Shown here piece after piece: positions 15,681 through 23,984 of a stretch of 49,616 nt of DNA. The DNA comes from a virus. The notes below the pieces were generated by a model that made no database searches, was not told the DNA's origin, and worked only from the letters and a program-made list of their open reading frames with translations. Within the stretch, counting starts at the first letter, position 1, and the number at the start of each line of letters is the position of its first letter. The stretch lies in IMG/VR virus record IMGVR_UViG_3300045988_013611; one strand, written 5' to 3'. The translations under genes and the position numbers were made by a program.

Positions 15681-15733
15681 AAAAAAAGAAAGAGGGGCTA
15701 ACCAACTACAATTCGTAGTCAGTTAGCCCCTCT
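15681..15733 (-). terminator. Strong intrinsic terminator (minus sense)
   Basis: 12-bp stem AGAGGGGCTAAC/GTTAGCCCCTCT followed, in minus sense, by TTCTTTTTTTC. Confidence 0.75.
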
Positions 15734-15783
15734 CGGCTCTTCTCACTCACCGCTTAGAGCGAGGTCGAATATTTGTTTGATTT

Positions 15784-20897: not shown

Positions 20898-22091
20898 TTA
20901 ATCGTCACTGACCAGCACCGCCTTTTCTCCTGTAAACTTCTCCCAACGATCAATGATTACATCGGCATACTTTGGGTCAAACTCCATGCAGTATGCGTGC
21001 CTGCCGTTCTGCTCTGCCGCCATTATCGTTGTGCCGGAACCAGCAAACAGATCGAGGACATTCTCGCCCGGTTTGCTGGAACACTGCATCTGATAATCAA
21101 ACAGCTTAATCGGCTTCATGGTCGGATGCTCCGCAGACTTAATCGGCTTATCAAAATTAAGAACAGTTGTCTGTCTGCGGTTCTTGAAGAAGTAATGCTT
21201 CTTTCCTTCCGTCCATCCGTAAAGGCAAGGCTCATGCGCATCCTCTTCAATTTCACTCTCACCGTACAGGCACGGCTCATGTTTCCACTGATAATCTTGC
21301 CGACCGAACGCAGATATATTCTTTACCCATATAAGCATCTGATGAACACGCAAAGCAGCATCTTTGCAAGCTCCAAAAAAATTATATCCTTCGAGCCCTG
21401 CATGCCAGATATAGAACGGAGCGCCGGGCTTCATGACCATCGCCGCATTGGAGAAGGCATCCGTCAGGAACCGCCTAAAGGTTGCATCTTCCATGTTATC
21501 GTTTTTGATTTTGCCGGCGGTGCCCTGATAGTCCACGTTGTAAGGAGGGTCAGTAAGCAGTAAATCAATTTGTGCCCCACCCAGAAGCTTTTGTACGTCC
21601 GTCAAAGACGTGCTGTCTCCGCACATAAGGCGATGGTCTTCCAGCTGGTACACATCTCCAAGCTTGCTCTTAGGATTCGCTGGGATGACAGGTTCATAAT
21701 CATCCTCGACAACGGAATCGTCCAGCTCGTCGCGCAATCCCCAATCGAAATCAAATCCTGACAGGTCAAGCCCGGGCAGTTCATCTGCCAGCAAATCAAA
21801 GTCCCAATCGCTCTCGTTGCTCTTGTTATCCACCAGCCGCAGGGCGTTCACCTGCTCCGGTGTCAGATCGTCCACGCAGACGCAAGGCACTTCTTCCATG
21901 CCCAACTTCTTTGCCGCCATAGCGCGGCAGTGGCCGATGACAATAACACCCTCTCGGTCAATCACAATCGGCTGCACGAACCCGTACTGTTTAATGCTTT
22001 CGGCCACATTGTTGATTTGCCGTCTGTCGTGCTTCTTGGCATTTGCAGCATACGGCATAATATCCGCCAGCCGCTTGTTTTTTACTTCCAT
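20898..22091 (-). CDS. ParB-like nuclease domain fused to an N6A/N4C DNA methyltransferase
   Basis: Start moved to ATG 22091 with RBS AAGGAGG. ParB-like N-terminus (KHDRRQINNVAESIKQYGFVQPIVI), DPPY motif (LLLTDPPYNV), then FAGSGTT. Confidence 0.8.
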   Translation of the reverse strand: MEVKNKRLADIMPYAANAKKHDRRQINNVAESIKQYGFVQPIVIDREGVIVIGHCRAMAAKKLGMEEVPCVCVDDLTPEQVNALRLVDNKSNESDWDFDLLADELPGLDLSGFDFDWGLRDELDDSVVEDDYEPVIPANPKSKLGDVYQLEDHRLMCGDSTSLTDVQKLLGGAQIDLLLTDPPYNVDYQGTAGKIKNDNMEDATFRRFLTDAFSNAAMVMKPGAPFYIWHAGLEGYNFFGACKDAALRVHQMLIWVKNISAFGRQDYQWKHEPCLYGESEIEEDAHEPCLYGWTEGKKHYFFKNRRQTTVLNFDKPIKSAEHPTMKPIKLFDYQMQCSSKPGENVLDLFAGSGTTIMAAEQNGRHAYCMEFDPKYADVIIDRWEKFTGEKAVLVSDD

Positions 22092-22849
22092 GTGGCCTCC
22101 TTTGTCTGACGCACCGTCCTCCCACCACTGGCCTTTGTCATTGGCACGTCTGTACCCGGCTTTCGCCTCACCTGAATATAACGTCTTCCCTGGGACACAT
22201 TGCCAAGAGGTGCGGGAAGTCCTATACGAAGTAAGCAGACTATTTGGGACGCATCCCATACAGCGGTCTGCCAGCGCAATCACACCGCGCTGCGCCTTTT
22301 CATCAGCCGCACACTGTTTTTGCGGATTAACTGTCCGCCGCTGTGGCCACAGCTTGTGTGCACTTAACTTCTCGCGCTTCCTCGCCCGCTTGTGTGGTTG
22401 GTGCGGCATTGCAGTCCTGCCCTGCTTTAGCGCTTCAGGGAAAGTCCCCGTCACTCGCTGTGGTCTCCCCTTACGGGGCACCTATGCCGCATACAGTGCG
22501 TTTTCTTTCGGCTTCCGCCTATCCGCCTTGAGGAATACGCACAACCCTTCGGAACTCCATGGTAAACGCATGGCGGAGCGCCTACCGCTTCAATGTTCTG
22601 GCACACTTTCGGGCGGGACGCTATGCCACTTGCCCACGGTAGTGCCGCACCGCTTTTTTCGTCGCGGATTCCGTCTCTACAGGCTCCGTATTACCCAGCC
22701 GTTTTCTATGTGTCGGCACACTGTGGCCGGATGGGAGGCGCGACCTCCCGCCCCTGATCGTGGGGTAGCTCACGCAGTCCGGCGTATGCCCGTCATATAC
22801 CGCTGGCGGGAAAGCGGTTGAAAGGAAAACAATACCGTAAAAGGCGGTA
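22092..22849 (-). ncRNA. Candidate large structured non-coding RNA (class unknown; ROOL/GOLLD-like context)
   Basis: About 760 nt with no RBS-led ORF, in a genome that is otherwise densely coding. Many GC helices carry GNRA or UNCG loops. It lies adjacent to a tRNA-like gene. See findings. Confidence 0.45.
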
Positions 22850-22933
22850 TGGAGGCATTGGCGGGAATCGAACCCTGCATCGTCCATCGGCGGCGGTTTC
22901 CGCCGTGCGCTCTTCCAACTGAGCTACAATGCC
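22850..22933 (-). tRNA. tRNA-like gene with a non-canonical anticodon arm and an 11-12 nt variable region
   Basis: Perfect 7-bp acceptor stem (GGCATTG/CAATGCC) plus an encoded CCA. Canonical D arm GCTC-AGTTGGAA-GAGC and T loop TTCGATT. The anticodon region CGGCGG-AAA-CCGCCG lacks U33. Confidence 0.6.
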
Positions 22934-23042
22934 GTGTGTGCCCGCCGCCGTGCAACGACGGGACACAGAAAGGAGAATGAAAAATGAATGCAAGCAAGAT
23001 GATGAATAGGAGGTGTCATAGGGTCCGCACGTCCCCGTGACT

Positions 23043-23051
23043 ATTGTACCA
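23043..23051 (-). promoter_or_regulatory. Extended -10 promoter (TGgTACAAT) upstream of the tRNA-like gene
   Basis: The reverse complement of 23043-23051 reads TGGTACAAT. It lies about 110 nt upstream of the tRNA-like 5' end. Confidence 0.4.
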
Positions 23052-23119
23052 CACTTTTTGCAATGTTTATAGTGCAAAAACGCGGATTTTCTAAAGTAGT
23101 TATTCTAATTAAACACTTT

Positions 23120-23704
23120 TCACACTTCCTCGAAATACTTCACATCTCCGATGCTGCAAACGTAAATCTGCCCCTCATGGTATTCACTGTGTCCGGCGAT
23201 CTGGGGATTATAAAACACCGTCGCATTGCCGATGTCGGTAAATGTTTCACCGTACACAAACACCTCGCAAAAGGCGTTTCGCGCCGCGTCAGACACCCAG
23301 CTTGCTGGGGTGGTATACTGATACTCCCTGCATACGTCCTCCGGCGTGTAGCGGTTCCTGTGGCGATTGCAAGCGTTAAACAGGGCTTGTACAATGCCGC
23401 GGCACTGGTCGGCATCGTTTCCCGCTTCTGCCGTAACGATCTGAAGCACCTTCGTCACGTCGTAGCCGAAGGTCTCAAACTCCCGGTCTGTTCCGATGGC
23501 TGAAATCACCGCCTCCGCGCTTTTCTTCGCTTCGTCCTGGTCTTCGTATGGTTCTTCGTGTGGGCCGCCCTCGATCACCAGAATCGTGCGCTCCTCGCGC
23601 TCCGGCTCCTTTGCAGAAAAGCCGGTCAGCACCACCAGCGCCGCCGCCAGTATCAGCAGCACCCACGCAGCGGCAATAATGCGGTCATTTGTCGTTGGTT
23701 TCAT
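23120..23704 (-). CDS. Membrane-anchored SleB/CwlJ-type cell wall hydrolase
   Basis: Start moved to ATG 23704. An N-terminal TM helix, then VTAEAGNDADQCRGIVQALFNACNRH...ATVFYNP, which resembles the Hydrolase_2 fold. Confidence 0.6.
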   Translation of the reverse strand: MKPTTNDRIIAAAWVLLILAAALVVLTGFSAKEPEREERTILVIEGGPHEEPYEDQDEAKKSAEAVISAIGTDREFETFGYDVTKVLQIVTAEAGNDADQCRGIVQALFNACNRHRNRYTPEDVCREYQYTTPASWVSDAARNAFCEVFVYGETFTDIGNATVFYNPQIAGHSEYHEGQIYVCSIGDVKYFEEV

Positions 23705-23717
23705 TTGTTTTATGACG

Positions 23718-23984
23718 CTATTCCTCCTTTCTCTTACCGTAGGAGCAGAAGTCCTCCGGCTTGCGGCTCTGGAACCCGCAAATAACGCAGCTCCCGCCAA
23801 ACTCATGCTTACAGTCCTTGCAACGCACCACGACCGCCACATCGTCCGGCGTTTTGACTTTTTTATCAATCACGTCCTGACATACCTTTTCAACCGCCTT
23901 TGCCCTCTCGTAATATTTGCTACCAAAAGTGATTTCGTTGTCGCCATCGCCGTTCGTGTATTTTGCGTTCCACCAAGACATCAC
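23718..23984 (-). CDS. Hypothetical Cys-rich protein
   Basis: 88 aa. CKDCKH...CVIC motif. Confidence 0.5.
   Translation of the reverse strand: MMSWWNAKYTNGDGDNEITFGSKYYERAKAVEKVCQDVIDKKVKTPDDVAVVVRCKDCKHEFGGSCVICGFQSRKPEDFCSYGKRKEE

What the first reader, a model, noticed from the sequence alone, without database searches (positions are those of the whole stretch)
22092..22849. A roughly 760-nt ORF-free, hairpin-dense gap beside a tRNA-like gene: candidate large structured phage RNA
Elsewhere, genes abut or overlap. Here the ParB-methyltransferase clearly starts at ATG 22091 (RBS AAGGAGG), and nothing with an RBS occupies the next ~760 nt up to the tRNA-like gene.

In minus sense the region is full of short GC helices with stable loops:
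- CCCC-GUAA-GGGG (22467-22478)
- UGGGA-UGCG-UCCCA (22245-22258)
- GGGAGG-UCGCG-CCUCCC (22733-22749)
- GCGGA-CAGUUAA-UCCGC (22322-22338)
- CAGCGC...GCGCUG (22272-22292)
- the palindrome GCUGUGGCCACAGC (22340-22353)
- CCCUG/CAGGG (22436-22440 with 22420-22424)
- an 8-bp long-range pairing UGCGGCAU/AUGCCGCA (22484-22491 with 22402-22409) that encloses a multi-helix junction

The GOLLD and ROOL classes of large ornate RNAs are 500-800 nt, occur in Firmicute prophages and typically sit next to tRNAs. This locus has exactly that context. It could be a member of one of those classes or something new.
Basis: partly seen in the sequence, partly recalled or inferred. Interest (0 to 1): 0.8.

Follow-up and report, generated by a model that had tools for sequence, protein, structure and literature searches.

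The report
Phage array of small tRNA-like RNAs
The 760-base gap is not one giant RNA but a string of small folded RNA genes in a gut phage: one known family of unknown function (drum) and several unclassified tRNA look-alikes, which may belong to an RNA-level arms race over tRNA cutting.

Summary
The gap (22092-22849) is real, non-coding and structured, but it is not a ROOL/GOLLD-type large RNA. Rfam places a full-length drum RNA (RF02958, 76 bits against a threshold of 43) at 22493-22598(-). It gives no ROOL, GOLLD, intron, RNase P or tmRNA match even at E<=10.

Comparison with about 215 related viral and genomic loci shows a mosaic of independently shuffled modules, all on the minus strand:
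- an aberrant tRNA
- a mini-cloverleaf (module C)
- a short covarying module (D)
- drum
- a 92-nt cloverleaf ending in ACCA (module A)
- a three-way junction (B)
- a long hairpin (E)

Modules A and C have covariation support. Module A occurs in more than 150 gut-phage loci and is always co-oriented with nearby tRNAs.

Elsewhere, stand-alone drum genes end in an intrinsic terminator and often precede a PBECR4 RNase gene. In tRNA arrays the terminator is missing and a tRNA or module A follows instead; it abuts drum within 5 nt in the window, 16 relatives and two tRNA cases.

Best reading: a polycistronic small-RNA array cut up by tRNA-processing enzymes. An anti-RNase or tRNA-mimic role is inferred, not shown. 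Modules A and C may already sit in an uncharacterised 2023 catalogue.

The parts
23043..23051 (-). Candidate promoter for the array: extended -10 element TGgTACAAT, about 100 nt upstream of the first RNA gene
   Evidence: Read from the sequence. It is invariant in 14 distinct related sequences, and a -10-like TGgTATAGT sits at the same place in the divergent L178. A similar TGcTACAAT lies upstream of the array in L165. The consensus scan did not list it, so this is inferred.
22850..22933 (-). Aberrant tRNA-like gene (tRNA-like 1). It has the acceptor, D and T arms of a tRNA-Asn and an encoded CCA. The anticodon arm is replaced by CGGCGG-AAA-CCGCCG (loop GGAAACC, no U33, C37), with a variable region of about 15 nt.
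   Evidence: ARAGORN calls 'Phe(aaa)', 84 nt. Rfam tRNA scores 35.9 bits against a threshold of 29. Sister phages carry a canonical 75-nt tRNA-Asn(GUU), 67.5 bits, at the same position with the same acceptor stem. Other relatives carry two further non-canonical central domains.
22822..22850 (-). Hairpin plus U-rich tail directly after tRNA-like 1 (weak terminator-like site; dispensable)
   Evidence: Terminator-like site. It is removed by a 27-nt deletion in L025.
22725..22784 (-). Module C, a ~60-nt mini-cloverleaf: a closing stem of 6-7 bp, a 4-bp stem with the conserved loop ACGAUCA, and a 6-bp stem with loop UCGCR. Relatives end in A-CCA, A-CAA or A-CAG; the window copy ends in C-ACA with a C/C mismatch in the first pair.
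   Evidence: Alignment A3, 33 distinct sequences. 96.4% of cells are paired against 87.1% in shuffles, and 47 cells change on both sides against 15.6 (0/500). Slid controls give 45-51%. ARAGORN at a lowered threshold calls a tRNA-??? at 22725-22794.
22665..22721 (-). Linker block. In the L002/L003/L007/L021 lineage it lies directly upstream of drum, so it may hold a drum promoter or leader.
   Evidence: BLAST block map and the L002 sequence. No function was tested.
22600..22653 (-). Module D, a ~54-nt structured element: closing helix GGCAC/GUGCC, inner helix GGGC/GCCC, and a possible pseudoknot GCGG/CCGU
   Evidence: Both helices covary (GGCAC/GUGCC against GCCGC/GCGGC; GGGC/GCCC against GGAC/GUCC) in 17 distinct sequences. 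In at least 17 other loci it directly follows the CCA of module A; here it directly precedes drum.
22493..22598 (-). drum RNA (Rfam RF02958), full length, with no terminator and no PBECR4 gene
   Evidence: 76 bits against a gathering score of 43, model positions 1-112, E = 1.3e-12. Homologues in relatives score 71-82 bits. The window holds no PBECR4. No T-tract follows it.
22399..22490 (-). Module A, a 92-nt cloverleaf-shaped RNA. It has a 7-bp acceptor-like stem, discriminator A and CCA at 22401-22399. Arm 1 has a GNRA loop. Arm 2 has the conserved internal loop AGUGA/AAG and a hypervariable tip. Arm 3 has the loop GGCAGGA. It is not in Rfam.
   Evidence: z = -3.75. Alignment A2, 62 distinct sequences: 97.3% of cells paired, 11 pairs with changes on both sides against 2.6 +/- 1.2 in shuffles (0/500), slid controls 34-44%. 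The conserved block ends exactly at the CCA. 129 of 150 copies end in CCA, and base -1 is U or C. Covariance model R1 gives 121 bits here.
22279..22398 (-). Block B. It holds a 37-nt trailer of module A (22398-22362, motif AGCGGGCGAGGAAGCG) and a three-way junction core at 22361-22309. The core has closing stem GCACAC/GUGUGC, the palindromic hairpin CUGU-GGCC-ACAG, and GCGGA-CAGUUAA-UCCGC.
   Evidence: 24 copies, 14 distinct. The closing stem shows G-C, A.C, A-U and G.U states and one A-U to G-C swap. The palindrome changes to CUAU-CCGG-AUAG and stays a perfect palindrome. ARAGORN in mitochondrial mode calls an armless 'Asn(gtt)' at 22303-22355. Support is weak because there are few variants.
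22234..22272 (-). Long hairpin E (GGCAGAC...UGGGA-UGCG-UCCCA...GUCUGC) followed by UUACUU.
   Evidence: Sequence. By my reading of the two sequences, a similar hairpin with a different tip lies between drum and tRNA-Trp in L002; they were not aligned. The block 22228-22278 recurs on its own in other loci.
22092..22233 (-). Leader of the ParB-methyltransferase gene, with RBS AAGGAGG at 22102-22096 and a conserved AAGGCCA..GGUGGG motif just upstream
   Evidence: The block 22102-22278 directly follows module A in L030, L031, L048 and L126. The motif is also seen upstream of the downstream gene in L113, L165 and L128.

Best explanation
The gap is a co-oriented array of at least five separate small structured-RNA genes. 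It sits between the early/replication genes and the packaging genes of a temperate Clostridia phage (related copies occur in Oscillospiraceae genomes).

In minus-sense order the array reads: promoter, aberrant tRNA, mini-cloverleaf C, module D, drum RNA, cloverleaf A ending in ACCA, three-way junction B, hairpin E, then the ParB-methyltransferase and terminase genes.

**Shown**
- The identity of drum.
- The folds of modules A and C, from covariation.
- The non-coding nature of the gap.
- The independent shuffling of the modules among phages.
- The strict co-orientation of module A with tRNA genes.
- The replacement of drum's usual terminator by a tRNA or by module A, directly abutting in the window and its closest relatives.

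**Inferred**
- The array is transcribed as one precursor and cut by the host's tRNA-maturation enzymes. RNase P would cut at the 5' end of each acceptor-like stem, followed by 3' trimming and CCA repair.
- The cut at G22490 would then create both the 3' end of drum and the 5' end of module A.

**Speculative**
- The released RNAs are non-decoding tRNA mimics, plus an 'orphan' drum RNA.
- They would act in RNA-level conflict by binding or diverting tRNA-directed nucleases such as the colicin-like PBECR4 RNase, which is drum's usual neighbour.
- They would work alongside the replacement tRNAs and RNA-repair genes that accompany drum in other phages.
For: **drum**
- Rfam RF02958, 76 bits against 43, full length.

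**Modularity**
- BLAST block maps show modules A, C, D, B, the linker and drum in different combinations and orders.
- In 8 loci (L014, L015, L018, L019, L061, L121, L178 and others) about 895 nt separate drum from module A; in L015 that stretch holds a 229-codon ORF. L010 has a 155-nt insert.
- In L001 module A sits between real tRNA genes.
- In L009 the Rfam family int-alpA lies downstream of drum, and no module A was found there.

**Folds**
- Module A: 97.3% of cells paired, 11 pairs with changes on both sides against 2.6 +/- 1.2. Further compensatory changes appear in the genome copies.
- Module C: 96.4% paired against 87.1%, 47 double-change cells against 15.6.
- Module D helices covary.

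**Strand**
- G.U pairs are frequent on the minus-sense reading, for example pair 1-72 of module A (27 GU, 21 GC, 12 AU). They would be A/C mismatches on the other strand.

**tRNA-likeness and processing**
- Module A has a 7-bp terminal stem plus N-CCA in 129 of 150 copies, with U or C at position -1.
- The conserved block ends at the CCA.
- All 91 tRNA calls within 1.5 kb of module A lie on the same strand, and 55 of 159 loci have one within 500 nt.
- A 7-bp acceptor stem is a major RNase P determinant, and tRNA-like Y RNAs are cut by RNase P and receive CCA (PMC4201824).

**drum 3' end**
- A T-tract follows drum in 18 of 20 copies that stand alone or precede PBECR4.
- A T-tract follows drum in 0 of 34 copies that sit beside tRNAs or module A.
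- In those 34, the next element downstream is module A at 2 nt in the window and 16 relatives, a tRNA at 1 nt (L215) or 5 nt (L191), and a tRNA or module A at 69-900 nt in the rest; three have a tRNA upstream only.

**Conflict context**
- PF18813 PBECR4 lies just downstream of drum in 11 loci, in the order promoter, drum, terminator, RNase gene.
- PBECRs are colicin-like BECR RNases, a group whose characterised members mostly cut tRNAs.
- In L012, drum and three tRNAs are flanked by RtcB ligase, a metallophosphoesterase and a reverse transcriptase.

**Non-coding**.
Against: - No expression data were available, so transcription, the promoter and every processing site are inferred.
- All module A copies are at least 88% identical. 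The covariation therefore rests on few events, and shuffle controls overstate significance for related sequences.
- Arm 3 of module A lacks the T-loop consensus, a single A separates arm 3 from the acceptor strand, and the coaxial stack would be 11 bp rather than 12. Its quality as an RNase P substrate is uncertain.
- The window copy of module C has a mismatched first pair and no CCA, so it may be decaying.
- A terminator-like hairpin follows tRNA-like 1 and could split the array into more than one transcript.
- Decoys without an anticodon loop would not bind classical anticodon nucleases.
- The window phage has no PBECR4, RtcB or other RNA-repair gene.
- Nothing shows that drum binds PBECR4. 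Where the two are adjacent, a cis-regulatory leader role fits equally well.
Confidence: 0.55

Rival explanations
1. One large ornate RNA (a ROOL/GOLLD member or a new class of about 760 nt) that folds as a unit.
For: - The gap is long, non-coding, next to a tRNA-like gene and in a Firmicute phage, which is the context described for ROOL and GOLLD (PMC5737381).
- The whole-gap fold is slightly more stable than shuffles (z = -2.09).
- The whole stretch 22496-23100 is conserved as a block in close relatives.
Against: - No ROOL, GOLLD or other large-RNA model matches at E<=10.
- 106 nt of the gap are the small RNA drum.
- Modules occur apart, re-ordered and interrupted by ORFs in other phages.
- Module A's conservation stops exactly at its CCA.
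- The flanking stretches fold no better than shuffles.
Confidence: 0.04
2. A cis-acting leader of the late (packaging) operon. The structured modules would control read-through, stability or translation of the ParB-methyltransferase/terminase mRNA, for example through put-like processive antitermination or attenuators, rather than being released as separate RNAs.
For: - The array is on the same strand as, and directly upstream of, the first late genes.
- A ParB-methyltransferase homologue lies 196-918 nt downstream of module A in 49 of 129 loci, and a TerL homologue lies downstream in 55.
- A conserved motif sits just before the RBS.
- Hairpins with U-rich tails occur inside the array.
- Stand-alone drum lies in the 5' leader of PBECR4 with a terminator.
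Against: - Most module A loci do not have these genes downstream, and the distance varies five-fold.
- Module A sits inside tRNA clusters far from any such gene, as in L001.
- The CCA ends and acceptor-like stems are not explained by this reading.
- The modules shuffle independently of the downstream gene.
Confidence: 0.17
3. A decaying phage tRNA cluster. The aberrant tRNA, modules A, C and B would be pseudogenes or remnants of tRNA genes with no present function, lying next to a functional drum gene.
For: - Sister phages have a canonical tRNA-Asn where the window has the aberrant copy.
- The window's module C has a mismatched first pair and no CCA.
- Lenient ARAGORN modes see degenerate tRNA shapes in modules C and B.
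- The tip of arm 2 in module A has no conserved loop.
Against: - Module A is at least 88% identical across more than 150 phage loci whose flanks are unrelated, with compensatory changes that keep four helices. That is purifying selection on a fold, not decay.
- Module C likewise keeps its helices and an invariant loop through three different stem versions.
- The replaced anticodon arms are perfect GC-rich hairpins, not eroded ones.
Confidence: 0.12
4. DNA-level signals. The palindromes and hairpins would be protein-binding sites such as operators, late-activator sites or pac/cos-related sites next to the terminase genes.
For: - GCUGUGGCCACAGC changes to CUAUCCGGAUAG in relatives and stays a perfect palindrome, including its centre.
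- The location is immediately upstream of the packaging module.
Against: - This could apply only to parts of block B.
- The helices of modules A, C and D tolerate G.U but not A/C pairs on one strand only.
- drum is an RNA family supported by covariation in Rfam.
Confidence: 0.07

Closest known systems
drum RNA (Rfam RF02958; Weinberg et al. 2017, PMC5737381)
   Same: The stretch 22493-22598(-) is a full-length member (76 bits). Like other drum RNAs it is highly conserved, is not obviously a riboswitch, and lies in a phage or Firmicute context.
   Different: - Published drum RNAs are described as ending in a Rho-independent terminator and as being associated with one particular protein.
- Here there is no terminator, no PBECR4 gene in 49.6 kb, and the RNA is wedged between two other structured modules.
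Whether that is the protein meant in the 2017 supplement could not be checked.
Phage tRNA gene clusters that also encode small stable RNAs of unknown function (phage T4 tRNA region with RNAs C and D; from my own knowledge, no paper retrieved)
   Same: Small non-tRNA structured RNAs are interleaved with tRNA genes on one strand. In T4 they are released from a common precursor by tRNA-processing enzymes.
   Different: - The host and phage type are different, and there is no sequence relationship.
- Most of the 'tRNAs' here are themselves non-decoding mimics.
Bacterial and phage Y RNAs of the YrlA type (Chen et al. 2014, PMC4201824)
   Same: - These are non-coding RNAs with a tRNA-like module.
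- A copy with a 7-bp acceptor stem is cut by RNase P and receives CCA.
- They are linked to RNA-repair operons (RtcB). Compare the RtcB next to drum and tRNAs in L012.
   Different: - No Ro60/Rsr gene was seen among the ORFs that were scanned.
- There is no T-arm or D-arm consensus and no Ro-binding stem.
- No Rfam match was found.
ROOL and GOLLD large ornate RNAs
   Same: The genomic setting is the same: prophages of Firmicutes, near tRNAs, function unknown.
   Different: - Those are single RNAs of 500-800 nt with many junctions and pseudoknots.
- Here no model matches, and the region is made of separable units of 50-110 nt.
Type III toxin-antitoxin systems (ToxIN) and phage pseudo-antitoxin RNAs (from my own knowledge)
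   Same: - Stand-alone drum cassettes have the order promoter, structured RNA, terminator, endoRNase gene.
- Orphan drum copies in other phages would parallel phage-encoded pseudo-ToxI.
   Different: - drum is a single complex fold, not a tandem repeat.
- No toxicity, binding or processing has been shown.
- PBECR4 is not in PADLOC.
Candidate structured RNAs catalogued from IMG/VR (Fremin et al. 2023, PMC10690425)
   Same: That survey predicted 8,495 candidate RNAs in the same collection, including tRNA-like ones that overlap ARAGORN Cys and Asp calls. Modules A, C and D and the aberrant tRNAs may be among them.
   Different: The catalogue gives no function. Its supplementary models were not available here, so identity could not be checked.

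Membership tests
ROOL RNA | [quoted passage not shown] | tested here: not met
   No ROOL match in the window at gathering thresholds, nor in 21900-23200 at E<=10 with permissive filters.
GOLLD RNA | Match to the Rfam covariance model; a single RNA of about 800 nt | tested here: not met
   No match.
Group I/II introns, RNase P RNA, tmRNA | Match to the Rfam models; for tmRNA, also an ARAGORN call | tested here: not met
   No match. ARAGORN found no tmRNA.
drum RNA (RF02958) | Covariance-model score at or above 43 bits over the full model | tested here: met
   76 bits, model positions 1-112 of 112, E = 1.3e-12.
drum RNA (RF02958) | A Rho-independent terminator at the 3' end (PMC5737381) | tested here: not met
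   No minus-strand terminator-like site was found after 22493, and there is no T-tract within 60 nt. Module A starts 2 nt downstream. The same holds for all 34 drum copies that sit beside tRNAs or module A.
drum RNA (RF02958) | Association with one particular protein-coding gene nearby (PMC5737381, supplement) | tested here: not met
The window's six-frame translation has no match at E<=0.01. The 2017 supplement was not available, so the partner's identity could not be confirmed.
tRNA (for 22850-22933) | Rfam tRNA model at or above 29 bits, and a cloverleaf called by ARAGORN | tested here: met
   35.9 bits. ARAGORN nt with CCA.
tRNA (for 22850-22933) | A canonical 7-nt anticodon loop with U33 and a purine at position 37 | tested here: not met
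   The loop is GGAAACC and can close to a 3-nt loop. Sister loci carry CUGUUAA (Asn) at the same site.
tRNA (for module A, 22399-22490) | Detection by tRNA models; D-loop and T-loop consensus; an anticodon loop | tested here: not met
   There is no Rfam tRNA match at E<=10 and no ARAGORN call in any mode. The loops are GUAA, CUU (variable) and GGCAGGA. Only the 7-bp acceptor-like stem, the discriminator and the CCA are shared.
YrlA-type Y RNA | Encoded next to a Ro60/Rsr gene; Ro-binding stem; tRNA-like T and D arms | tested here: inconclusive
   No Rfam match. No Ro60 was seen among the ORFs scanned, but the window was not scanned exhaustively. The T/D consensus is absent by inspection.
Type III toxin-antitoxin (for drum with PBECR4 elsewhere) | An RNA antitoxin gene, then a terminator, then an endoRNase toxin gene; the RNA neutralises the toxin | not testable with these tools
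   The gene order matches in L207. Neutralisation and toxicity need experiments. The RNA is not a tandem repeat.

The most novel reading that the evidence does not exclude
The island would be an RNA 'anti-tRNase kit'.
- drum would be the RNA partner (inhibitor or antitoxin) of colicin-like PBECR4 RNases.
- Phages that lack the RNase would carry orphan drum copies as molecular mimics.
- These would be bundled with a new, widespread class of non-decoding tRNA mimics: module A, module C, and tRNAs whose anticodon domain has been swapped out. The mimics would divert or block tRNA-directed nucleases or tRNA-end-modifying toxins.
- The tRNA-like units would double as RNase P cutting signals that release each RNA.
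Probability: 0.2. Interest if true: 0.85.

Novelty: new variant of a known kind. Interest (0 to 1): 0.6.

Why it matters
**drum RNA.** drum is one of the highly conserved bacterial RNA motifs singled out in 2017 as likely to have a sophisticated but unknown function. This locus and its relatives give two concrete handles.
- Its frequent neighbour in the stand-alone copies sampled is a predicted colicin-like RNase (PBECR4), in an arrangement like a type III toxin-antitoxin system.
- In other phages it is embedded in tRNA arrays, where a tRNA or tRNA-like element follows it and the terminator is absent.

Both points are directly testable.

**tRNA mimics.** The same arrays carry at least two unclassified RNAs with covariation support and tRNA-like ends. 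Module A occurs in more than 150 gut-phage contigs. The arrays also carry tRNAs whose anticodon domain has been replaced.

If these are functional mimics, gut phages would carry a layer of RNA-based interference with tRNA biology that tRNA finders and Rfam do not capture.

If they are only processing signals or remnants, the locus is still a useful caution. A long hairpin-rich gap beside a tRNA is not necessarily a giant RNA.

Tried and rejected
- **Large-RNA and ribozyme families.** An Rfam scan of the window and a permissive scan of the gap found none. The sub-threshold hits (mir-2331, HOTTIP_2, NEAT1_1, CRISPR-DR36, sR52) are chance matches.
- **Protein coding in the gap.** The 334-codon + strand frame, the 130-codon upstream extension of the methylase frame and three shorter ORFs have no Pfam or PHROG match. 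Substitutions are evenly spread over codon phases, and relatives have frameshifting indels.
- **More module A copies or distant relatives.**
  - Covariance model R1 found one copy in the window.
  - It found no hit below 84 bits in 100 loci.
  - A degenerate genome-collection scan gave only 4 true, near-identical copies among 14 hits.
- **The upstream 249-aa neighbour (23120-23869).** It has no Pfam, NCBIfam, PADLOC or PDB match, shows no similarity to PBECR4, and matches only an unannotated PHROG. It was left unassigned.
- **PBECR4 as a catalogued defence gene.** It is not in PADLOC.
- **A protein immunity gene next to PBECR4.** None was recognised.
- **Supplements.** Those of Weinberg 2017 and Fremin 2023 are not held. 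As a result, the published drum-associated protein and any earlier listing of modules A, C and D could not be checked.
- **Literature searches.** Searches for phage tRNA-like arrays found no direct description. A search for the T4 stable RNAs found no usable paper.
Full report
**1. The observation**

The window is a phage genome segment with almost all genes on the minus strand. The gene order is:
- Sak-type annealing protein, NinB, SSB
- several DNA methylases, a Band-7 protein, a MazG-like pyrophosphatase, a Lar-like protein
- an unassigned 249-aa protein
- the gap
- a ParB_N + N6_N4 methyltransferase, small and large terminase subunits, and the ORF in the portal position (no family match)

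The methyltransferase starts at ATG 22091 with AAGGAGG at 22102-22096. The 130 in-frame codons upstream are Arg/Pro/Gln-rich and match nothing. The next gene call upstream is the tRNA-like gene at 22850-22933(-). So the 758-nt gap is real.

It is not literally ORF-free. A 334-codon frame is open on the + strand (21817-22821), and the methylase frame stays open up to 22481. Neither frame behaves like a gene:
- Substitutions against five relatives fall 55/52/53 on the three codon phases.
- Relatives carry 2-nt indels at 22226 and 22437.
- There is no Pfam or PHROG match.

The whole gap folds only slightly better than shuffled sequence: z = -2.09 on the minus strand and -1.34 on the plus strand.

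**2. What Rfam says**

At gathering thresholds the window has three RNA matches:
- drum RNA (RF02958) at 22493-22598(-), 76 bits against a threshold of 43, covering the whole model
- the tRNA-like gene, 35.9 bits against 29
- gut-2 RNA at 15719-15766(-), far from the gap

A permissive scan of 21900-23200 at E<=10 adds only chance-level hits. It finds no ROOL, GOLLD, group I/II intron, RNase P or tmRNA. So 106 nt of the gap are a known small RNA, and membership of the large-RNA classes is rejected.

drum was described in 2017 as a highly conserved motif followed by a terminator and associated with a particular protein. Its function is unknown (PMC5737381).

**3. The gap is a mosaic**

I fetched about 215 related loci, using drum-core and module-specific patterns on viral contigs and one scan of the genome collection. 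BLAST block maps show that the gap is made of pieces with sharp, recurring boundaries. These pieces occur in different combinations.

- 22399-22493 occurs in about 157 loci. The flanks on either side occur in only about 25-55.
- In 8 loci about 895 nt separate this piece from drum; in L015 the stretch holds a 229-codon ORF. In L010 a 155-nt insert separates them.
- In MT836871 the piece sits between real tRNA-Gln and tRNA-Thr/Trp genes.
- In L009 the Rfam family int-alpA lies downstream of drum, and no copy of this piece was found there.
- The piece 22604-22657 lies just before drum here. In at least 17 other loci it directly follows 22399-22493.
- The piece 22726-22766 occurs in 54 loci with unrelated flanks.

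A single folded RNA would not behave like this.

**4. Module A (22490 to 22399, minus sense)**

*Fold.* It forms a four-way junction:
- a 7-bp closing stem, GCGGCAU/AUGCCGC
- arm 1, with a GUAA loop
- arm 2, with an internal loop AGUGA/AAG and a distal hairpin
- arm 3, with loop GGCAGGA
- then a discriminator A and CCA

The fold is much more stable than shuffles (z = -3.75, 0 of 200).

I recovered 150 copies, 88 of them distinct and all at least 88% identical.

*Covariation (62 distinct sequences).*

| Measure | Observed | Control |
|---|---|---|
| Cells forming a standard pair | 97.3% | 34-44% with partners slid |
| Pairs with changes on both sides | 11 | 2.6 +/- 1.2 in shuffles (0/500) |

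Pair 1-72 runs through GC, GU and AU. The tip of arm 2 is replaced wholesale while staying paired: CGGGGA-CUU-UCCCUG, GCC-GAAUGAU-GGC and CGGCGG-CGUU-CCGCCG. There is therefore no conserved anticodon. Copies in Oscillospiraceae and Clostridiales genomes add further compensatory changes.

*Ends and context.*
- The conserved block stops exactly at the CCA.
- 129 of 150 copies end in CCA and 16 in CAA. The base before G1 is U in 110 copies and C in 37.
- Every one of the 91 ARAGORN tRNA calls within 1.5 kb lies on the same strand as module A. 55 of 159 loci have one within 500 nt.

*Detection.* Neither Rfam nor ARAGORN recognises module A. My covariance model finds one copy in the window and no divergent relatives.

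*Caveat.* The sequences are closely related, so the shuffle statistics overstate independence. The slid-partner control and the multi-state pairs are the more reliable evidence.

**5. The other modules**

*Module C (22784 to 22725).* It is a ~60-nt mini-cloverleaf.
- The closing stem exists in three versions: GCCGGA/UCCGGC, GCCGUG/CACGGC and GCCGCA/UGCGGC.
- The second stem exists in two versions (CCCC/GGGG, GCCC/GGGC) and the third in three. The loop ACGAUCA is invariant.
- 96.4% of cells are paired against 87.1% in shuffles. 47 cells change on both sides against 15.6.
- Relatives end in A-CCA, A-CAA or A-CAG.
- The window copy ends in C-ACA and has a C/C first pair, so it may be degenerate. 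ARAGORN at a lowered threshold calls it a tRNA of unknown type.

*Module D (22653 to 22600).* It has two covarying helices and a possible pseudoknot.

*Block B (22398 to 22279).*
- It contains a trailer that travels with module A in about 28 loci.
- It also contains a three-way junction with a few compensatory changes.
- One of its hairpins is a perfect palindrome that stays a perfect palindrome when it changes. A DNA-level role for that piece cannot be excluded.

By my reading of the sequences (not aligned), it resembles a hairpin between drum and tRNA-Trp in L002.

**6. The neighbouring tRNA-like gene**

It shares its acceptor, D and T arms with a canonical tRNA-Asn(GUU) that occupies the same position in five sister loci. 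Its anticodon arm, however, is CGGCGG-AAA-CCGCCG, with no U33 and a longer variable region.

Other relatives carry two more non-canonical centres in the same body.

Across the fetched loci there is a whole set of such genes. Their acceptor, D and T arms are normal and they end in ACCA, but their central domain is replaced. One class of 91-93 nt has a probable pseudoknot.

**7. drum in context**

A degenerate drum-core scan plus an nhmmer profile gave 57 drum copies. They fall into two groups.

| Group | What follows drum | T-tract within 60 nt |
|---|---|---|
| Stand-alone, highest Rfam scores (93-102 bits) | PF18813 PBECR4 gene on the same strand in 11 loci; neither element in 9 | 18 of 20 |
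| Array-embedded (window lineage, L002 lineage, L191, L206, L215) | tRNA or module A, at distances given below | 0 of 34 |

*Stand-alone group.*
- The PBECR4 matches have E values from 1e-27 to 1e-41.
- In L207 the order is a near-consensus promoter, drum, a strong terminator, then the RNase start codon 28 nt later.

*Array-embedded group.* The next element downstream of drum is:
- module A at 2 nt, in the window and 16 relatives
- a tRNA at 1 nt (L215) or 5 nt (L191)
- a tRNA at 69-336 nt, or module A at 155-900 nt, in the rest

Three copies have a tRNA upstream only.

*Further context.*
- In L206 the array also holds a skipping-rope RNA 2 nt after a tRNA.
- In L012, drum and three tRNAs are flanked by RtcB ligase, a metallophosphoesterase and a reverse transcriptase.
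- PBECRs are predicted phage RNases of the barnase/EndoU/colicin/RelE fold (PMC5512222). A recent classification puts them in the colicin-like group, whose characterised members mostly cut tRNAs.
- The window has no PBECR4.

**8. How it most likely works**

*Shown:*
- the composition of the gap
- the folds of modules A and C
- the strand
- the modularity
- the association with tRNA genes
- the terminator/tRNA dichotomy for drum

*Inferred:*
- A promoter (TGgTACAAT, 23051-23043, invariant in the lineage) drives a precursor through the array.
- The host's RNase P and 3'-end enzymes cut at the tRNA-like units. A 7-bp acceptor stem is a major RNase P determinant, and tRNA-like Y RNAs are processed this way (PMC4201824).
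- The cut at G22490 would make drum's 3' end and so replace the terminator used elsewhere.

*Speculative:* the products act on tRNA-directed enzymes. The orphan drum would mimic the RNA partner of PBECR4-type RNases. The non-decoding tRNA mimics would divert enzymes that recognise the acceptor/T half or the CCA end.

*Rivals:*
- a cis-acting late-operon leader
- a decaying tRNA cluster
- DNA-level sites (possible for the palindrome only)
- a single large RNA, which the data largely exclude

**9. Comparison and novelty**

- drum itself is already known.
- The arrangement resembles the phage T4 tRNA cluster with its stable RNAs C and D (my own knowledge), and also the tRNA-like Y RNAs.
- Modules A, C and D are absent from Rfam 15. 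I found no description of them.
- A 2023 survey predicted 8,495 candidate RNAs from the same viral collection, including tRNA-like ones. Its models were not available to me. The modules may therefore already be listed there without a function.
- I classify the finding as a new variant of a known kind: small tRNA-like and partner RNAs in a phage tRNA-type array.
- Its value lies in the testable link between drum, a colicin-like RNase and tRNA arrays.

Noticed in passing
window 15719-15766 (-): gut-2 RNA (Rfam RF02990, 47 bits against a threshold of 39.8) lies in the structural-gene region. The same family is also present in L006 and L009 (its position there was not compared).
   Followed up: no
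related loci, e.g. L114/L161 (93 nt), L054/L060/L093 (84 nt), L116/L154/L156 (80 nt), L056/L132 (77 nt): A set of aberrant tRNA-like genes. The acceptor stem (GCAGGCG/CGCCUGC), D arm, T arm and ACCA are normal, but the anticodon and variable region is replaced by diverse inserts. One class has a probable H-type pseudoknot (AUCGC/GCGAU with AAUGG/CCAUU, the latter covarying with AAGGG/CCCUU). ARAGORN gives them odd anticodons (cgc, atc, aat, aaa).
   Followed up: partly
L012 3384-9310: drum and three tRNAs are flanked by an RtcB RNA ligase, a calcineurin-like phosphoesterase and a reverse transcriptase. This is an RNA-repair neighbourhood in a different phage lineage.
   Followed up: partly
L189, L192, L200, L207, L202, L187, L205, L203, L201, L198, L193 (e.g. 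L207 13775-14663): Stand-alone drum cassettes have the order promoter, drum, intrinsic terminator, PBECR4 RNase gene (PF18813). In some they are placed divergently from the small terminase subunit gene. The layout resembles a type III toxin-antitoxin system. PBECR4 is not in PADLOC.
   Followed up: partly
L206 2064-8424; L215 2101-3610: L206 has a 14-tRNA array that holds both drum and a skipping-rope RNA (RF02924); the skipping-rope RNA starts 2 nt after a tRNA. L215 has drum abutting tRNA-Val, with a group I intron match 330 nt further on.
   Followed up: no
L009 13760-13832 (-): int-alpA RNA (RF02996, 38.2 bits against 35.8) lies downstream of drum, and no module A was found in that locus.
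   Followed up: no
L015 5542-6231 (-), also L014, L018, L019, L061, L121, L178: About 895 nt separate drum from module A; in L015 the stretch carries a 229-codon ORF. By eye the ORF looks like a Rha/antirepressor-type phage regulator, but it was not checked against any library.
   Followed up: no
window 22340-22353; L045/L062/L076 equivalents: The palindrome GCUGUGGCCACAGC changes to CUAUCCGGAUAG in relatives and remains a perfect palindrome, centre included. This hints at a DNA site for a dimeric protein inside block B.
   Followed up: partly
window 22110-22135; L113, L165, L128 upstream of the downstream gene: A conserved motif, AAGGCCA(A/G)NGGUGGG(A/G)G..GGU, lies just upstream of the ribosome-binding site of the ParB-methyltransferase (or equivalent first gene) in otherwise unrelated leaders.
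   Followed up: no
window 21817-22821 (+): A 334-codon open frame on the + strand, antisense to the start of the methylase gene and running through most of the gap. It has only one stop across 758 nt in that frame. It is not coding by phase, indel and family tests, and probably reflects the strand's low A content.
   Followed up: yes
window 23120-23869 (-): The 249-aa gene just upstream of the array is conserved with it in the window lineage. Its only match is to an unannotated PHROG (18750); it has no Pfam, NCBIfam, PADLOC or PDB match.
   Followed up: partly
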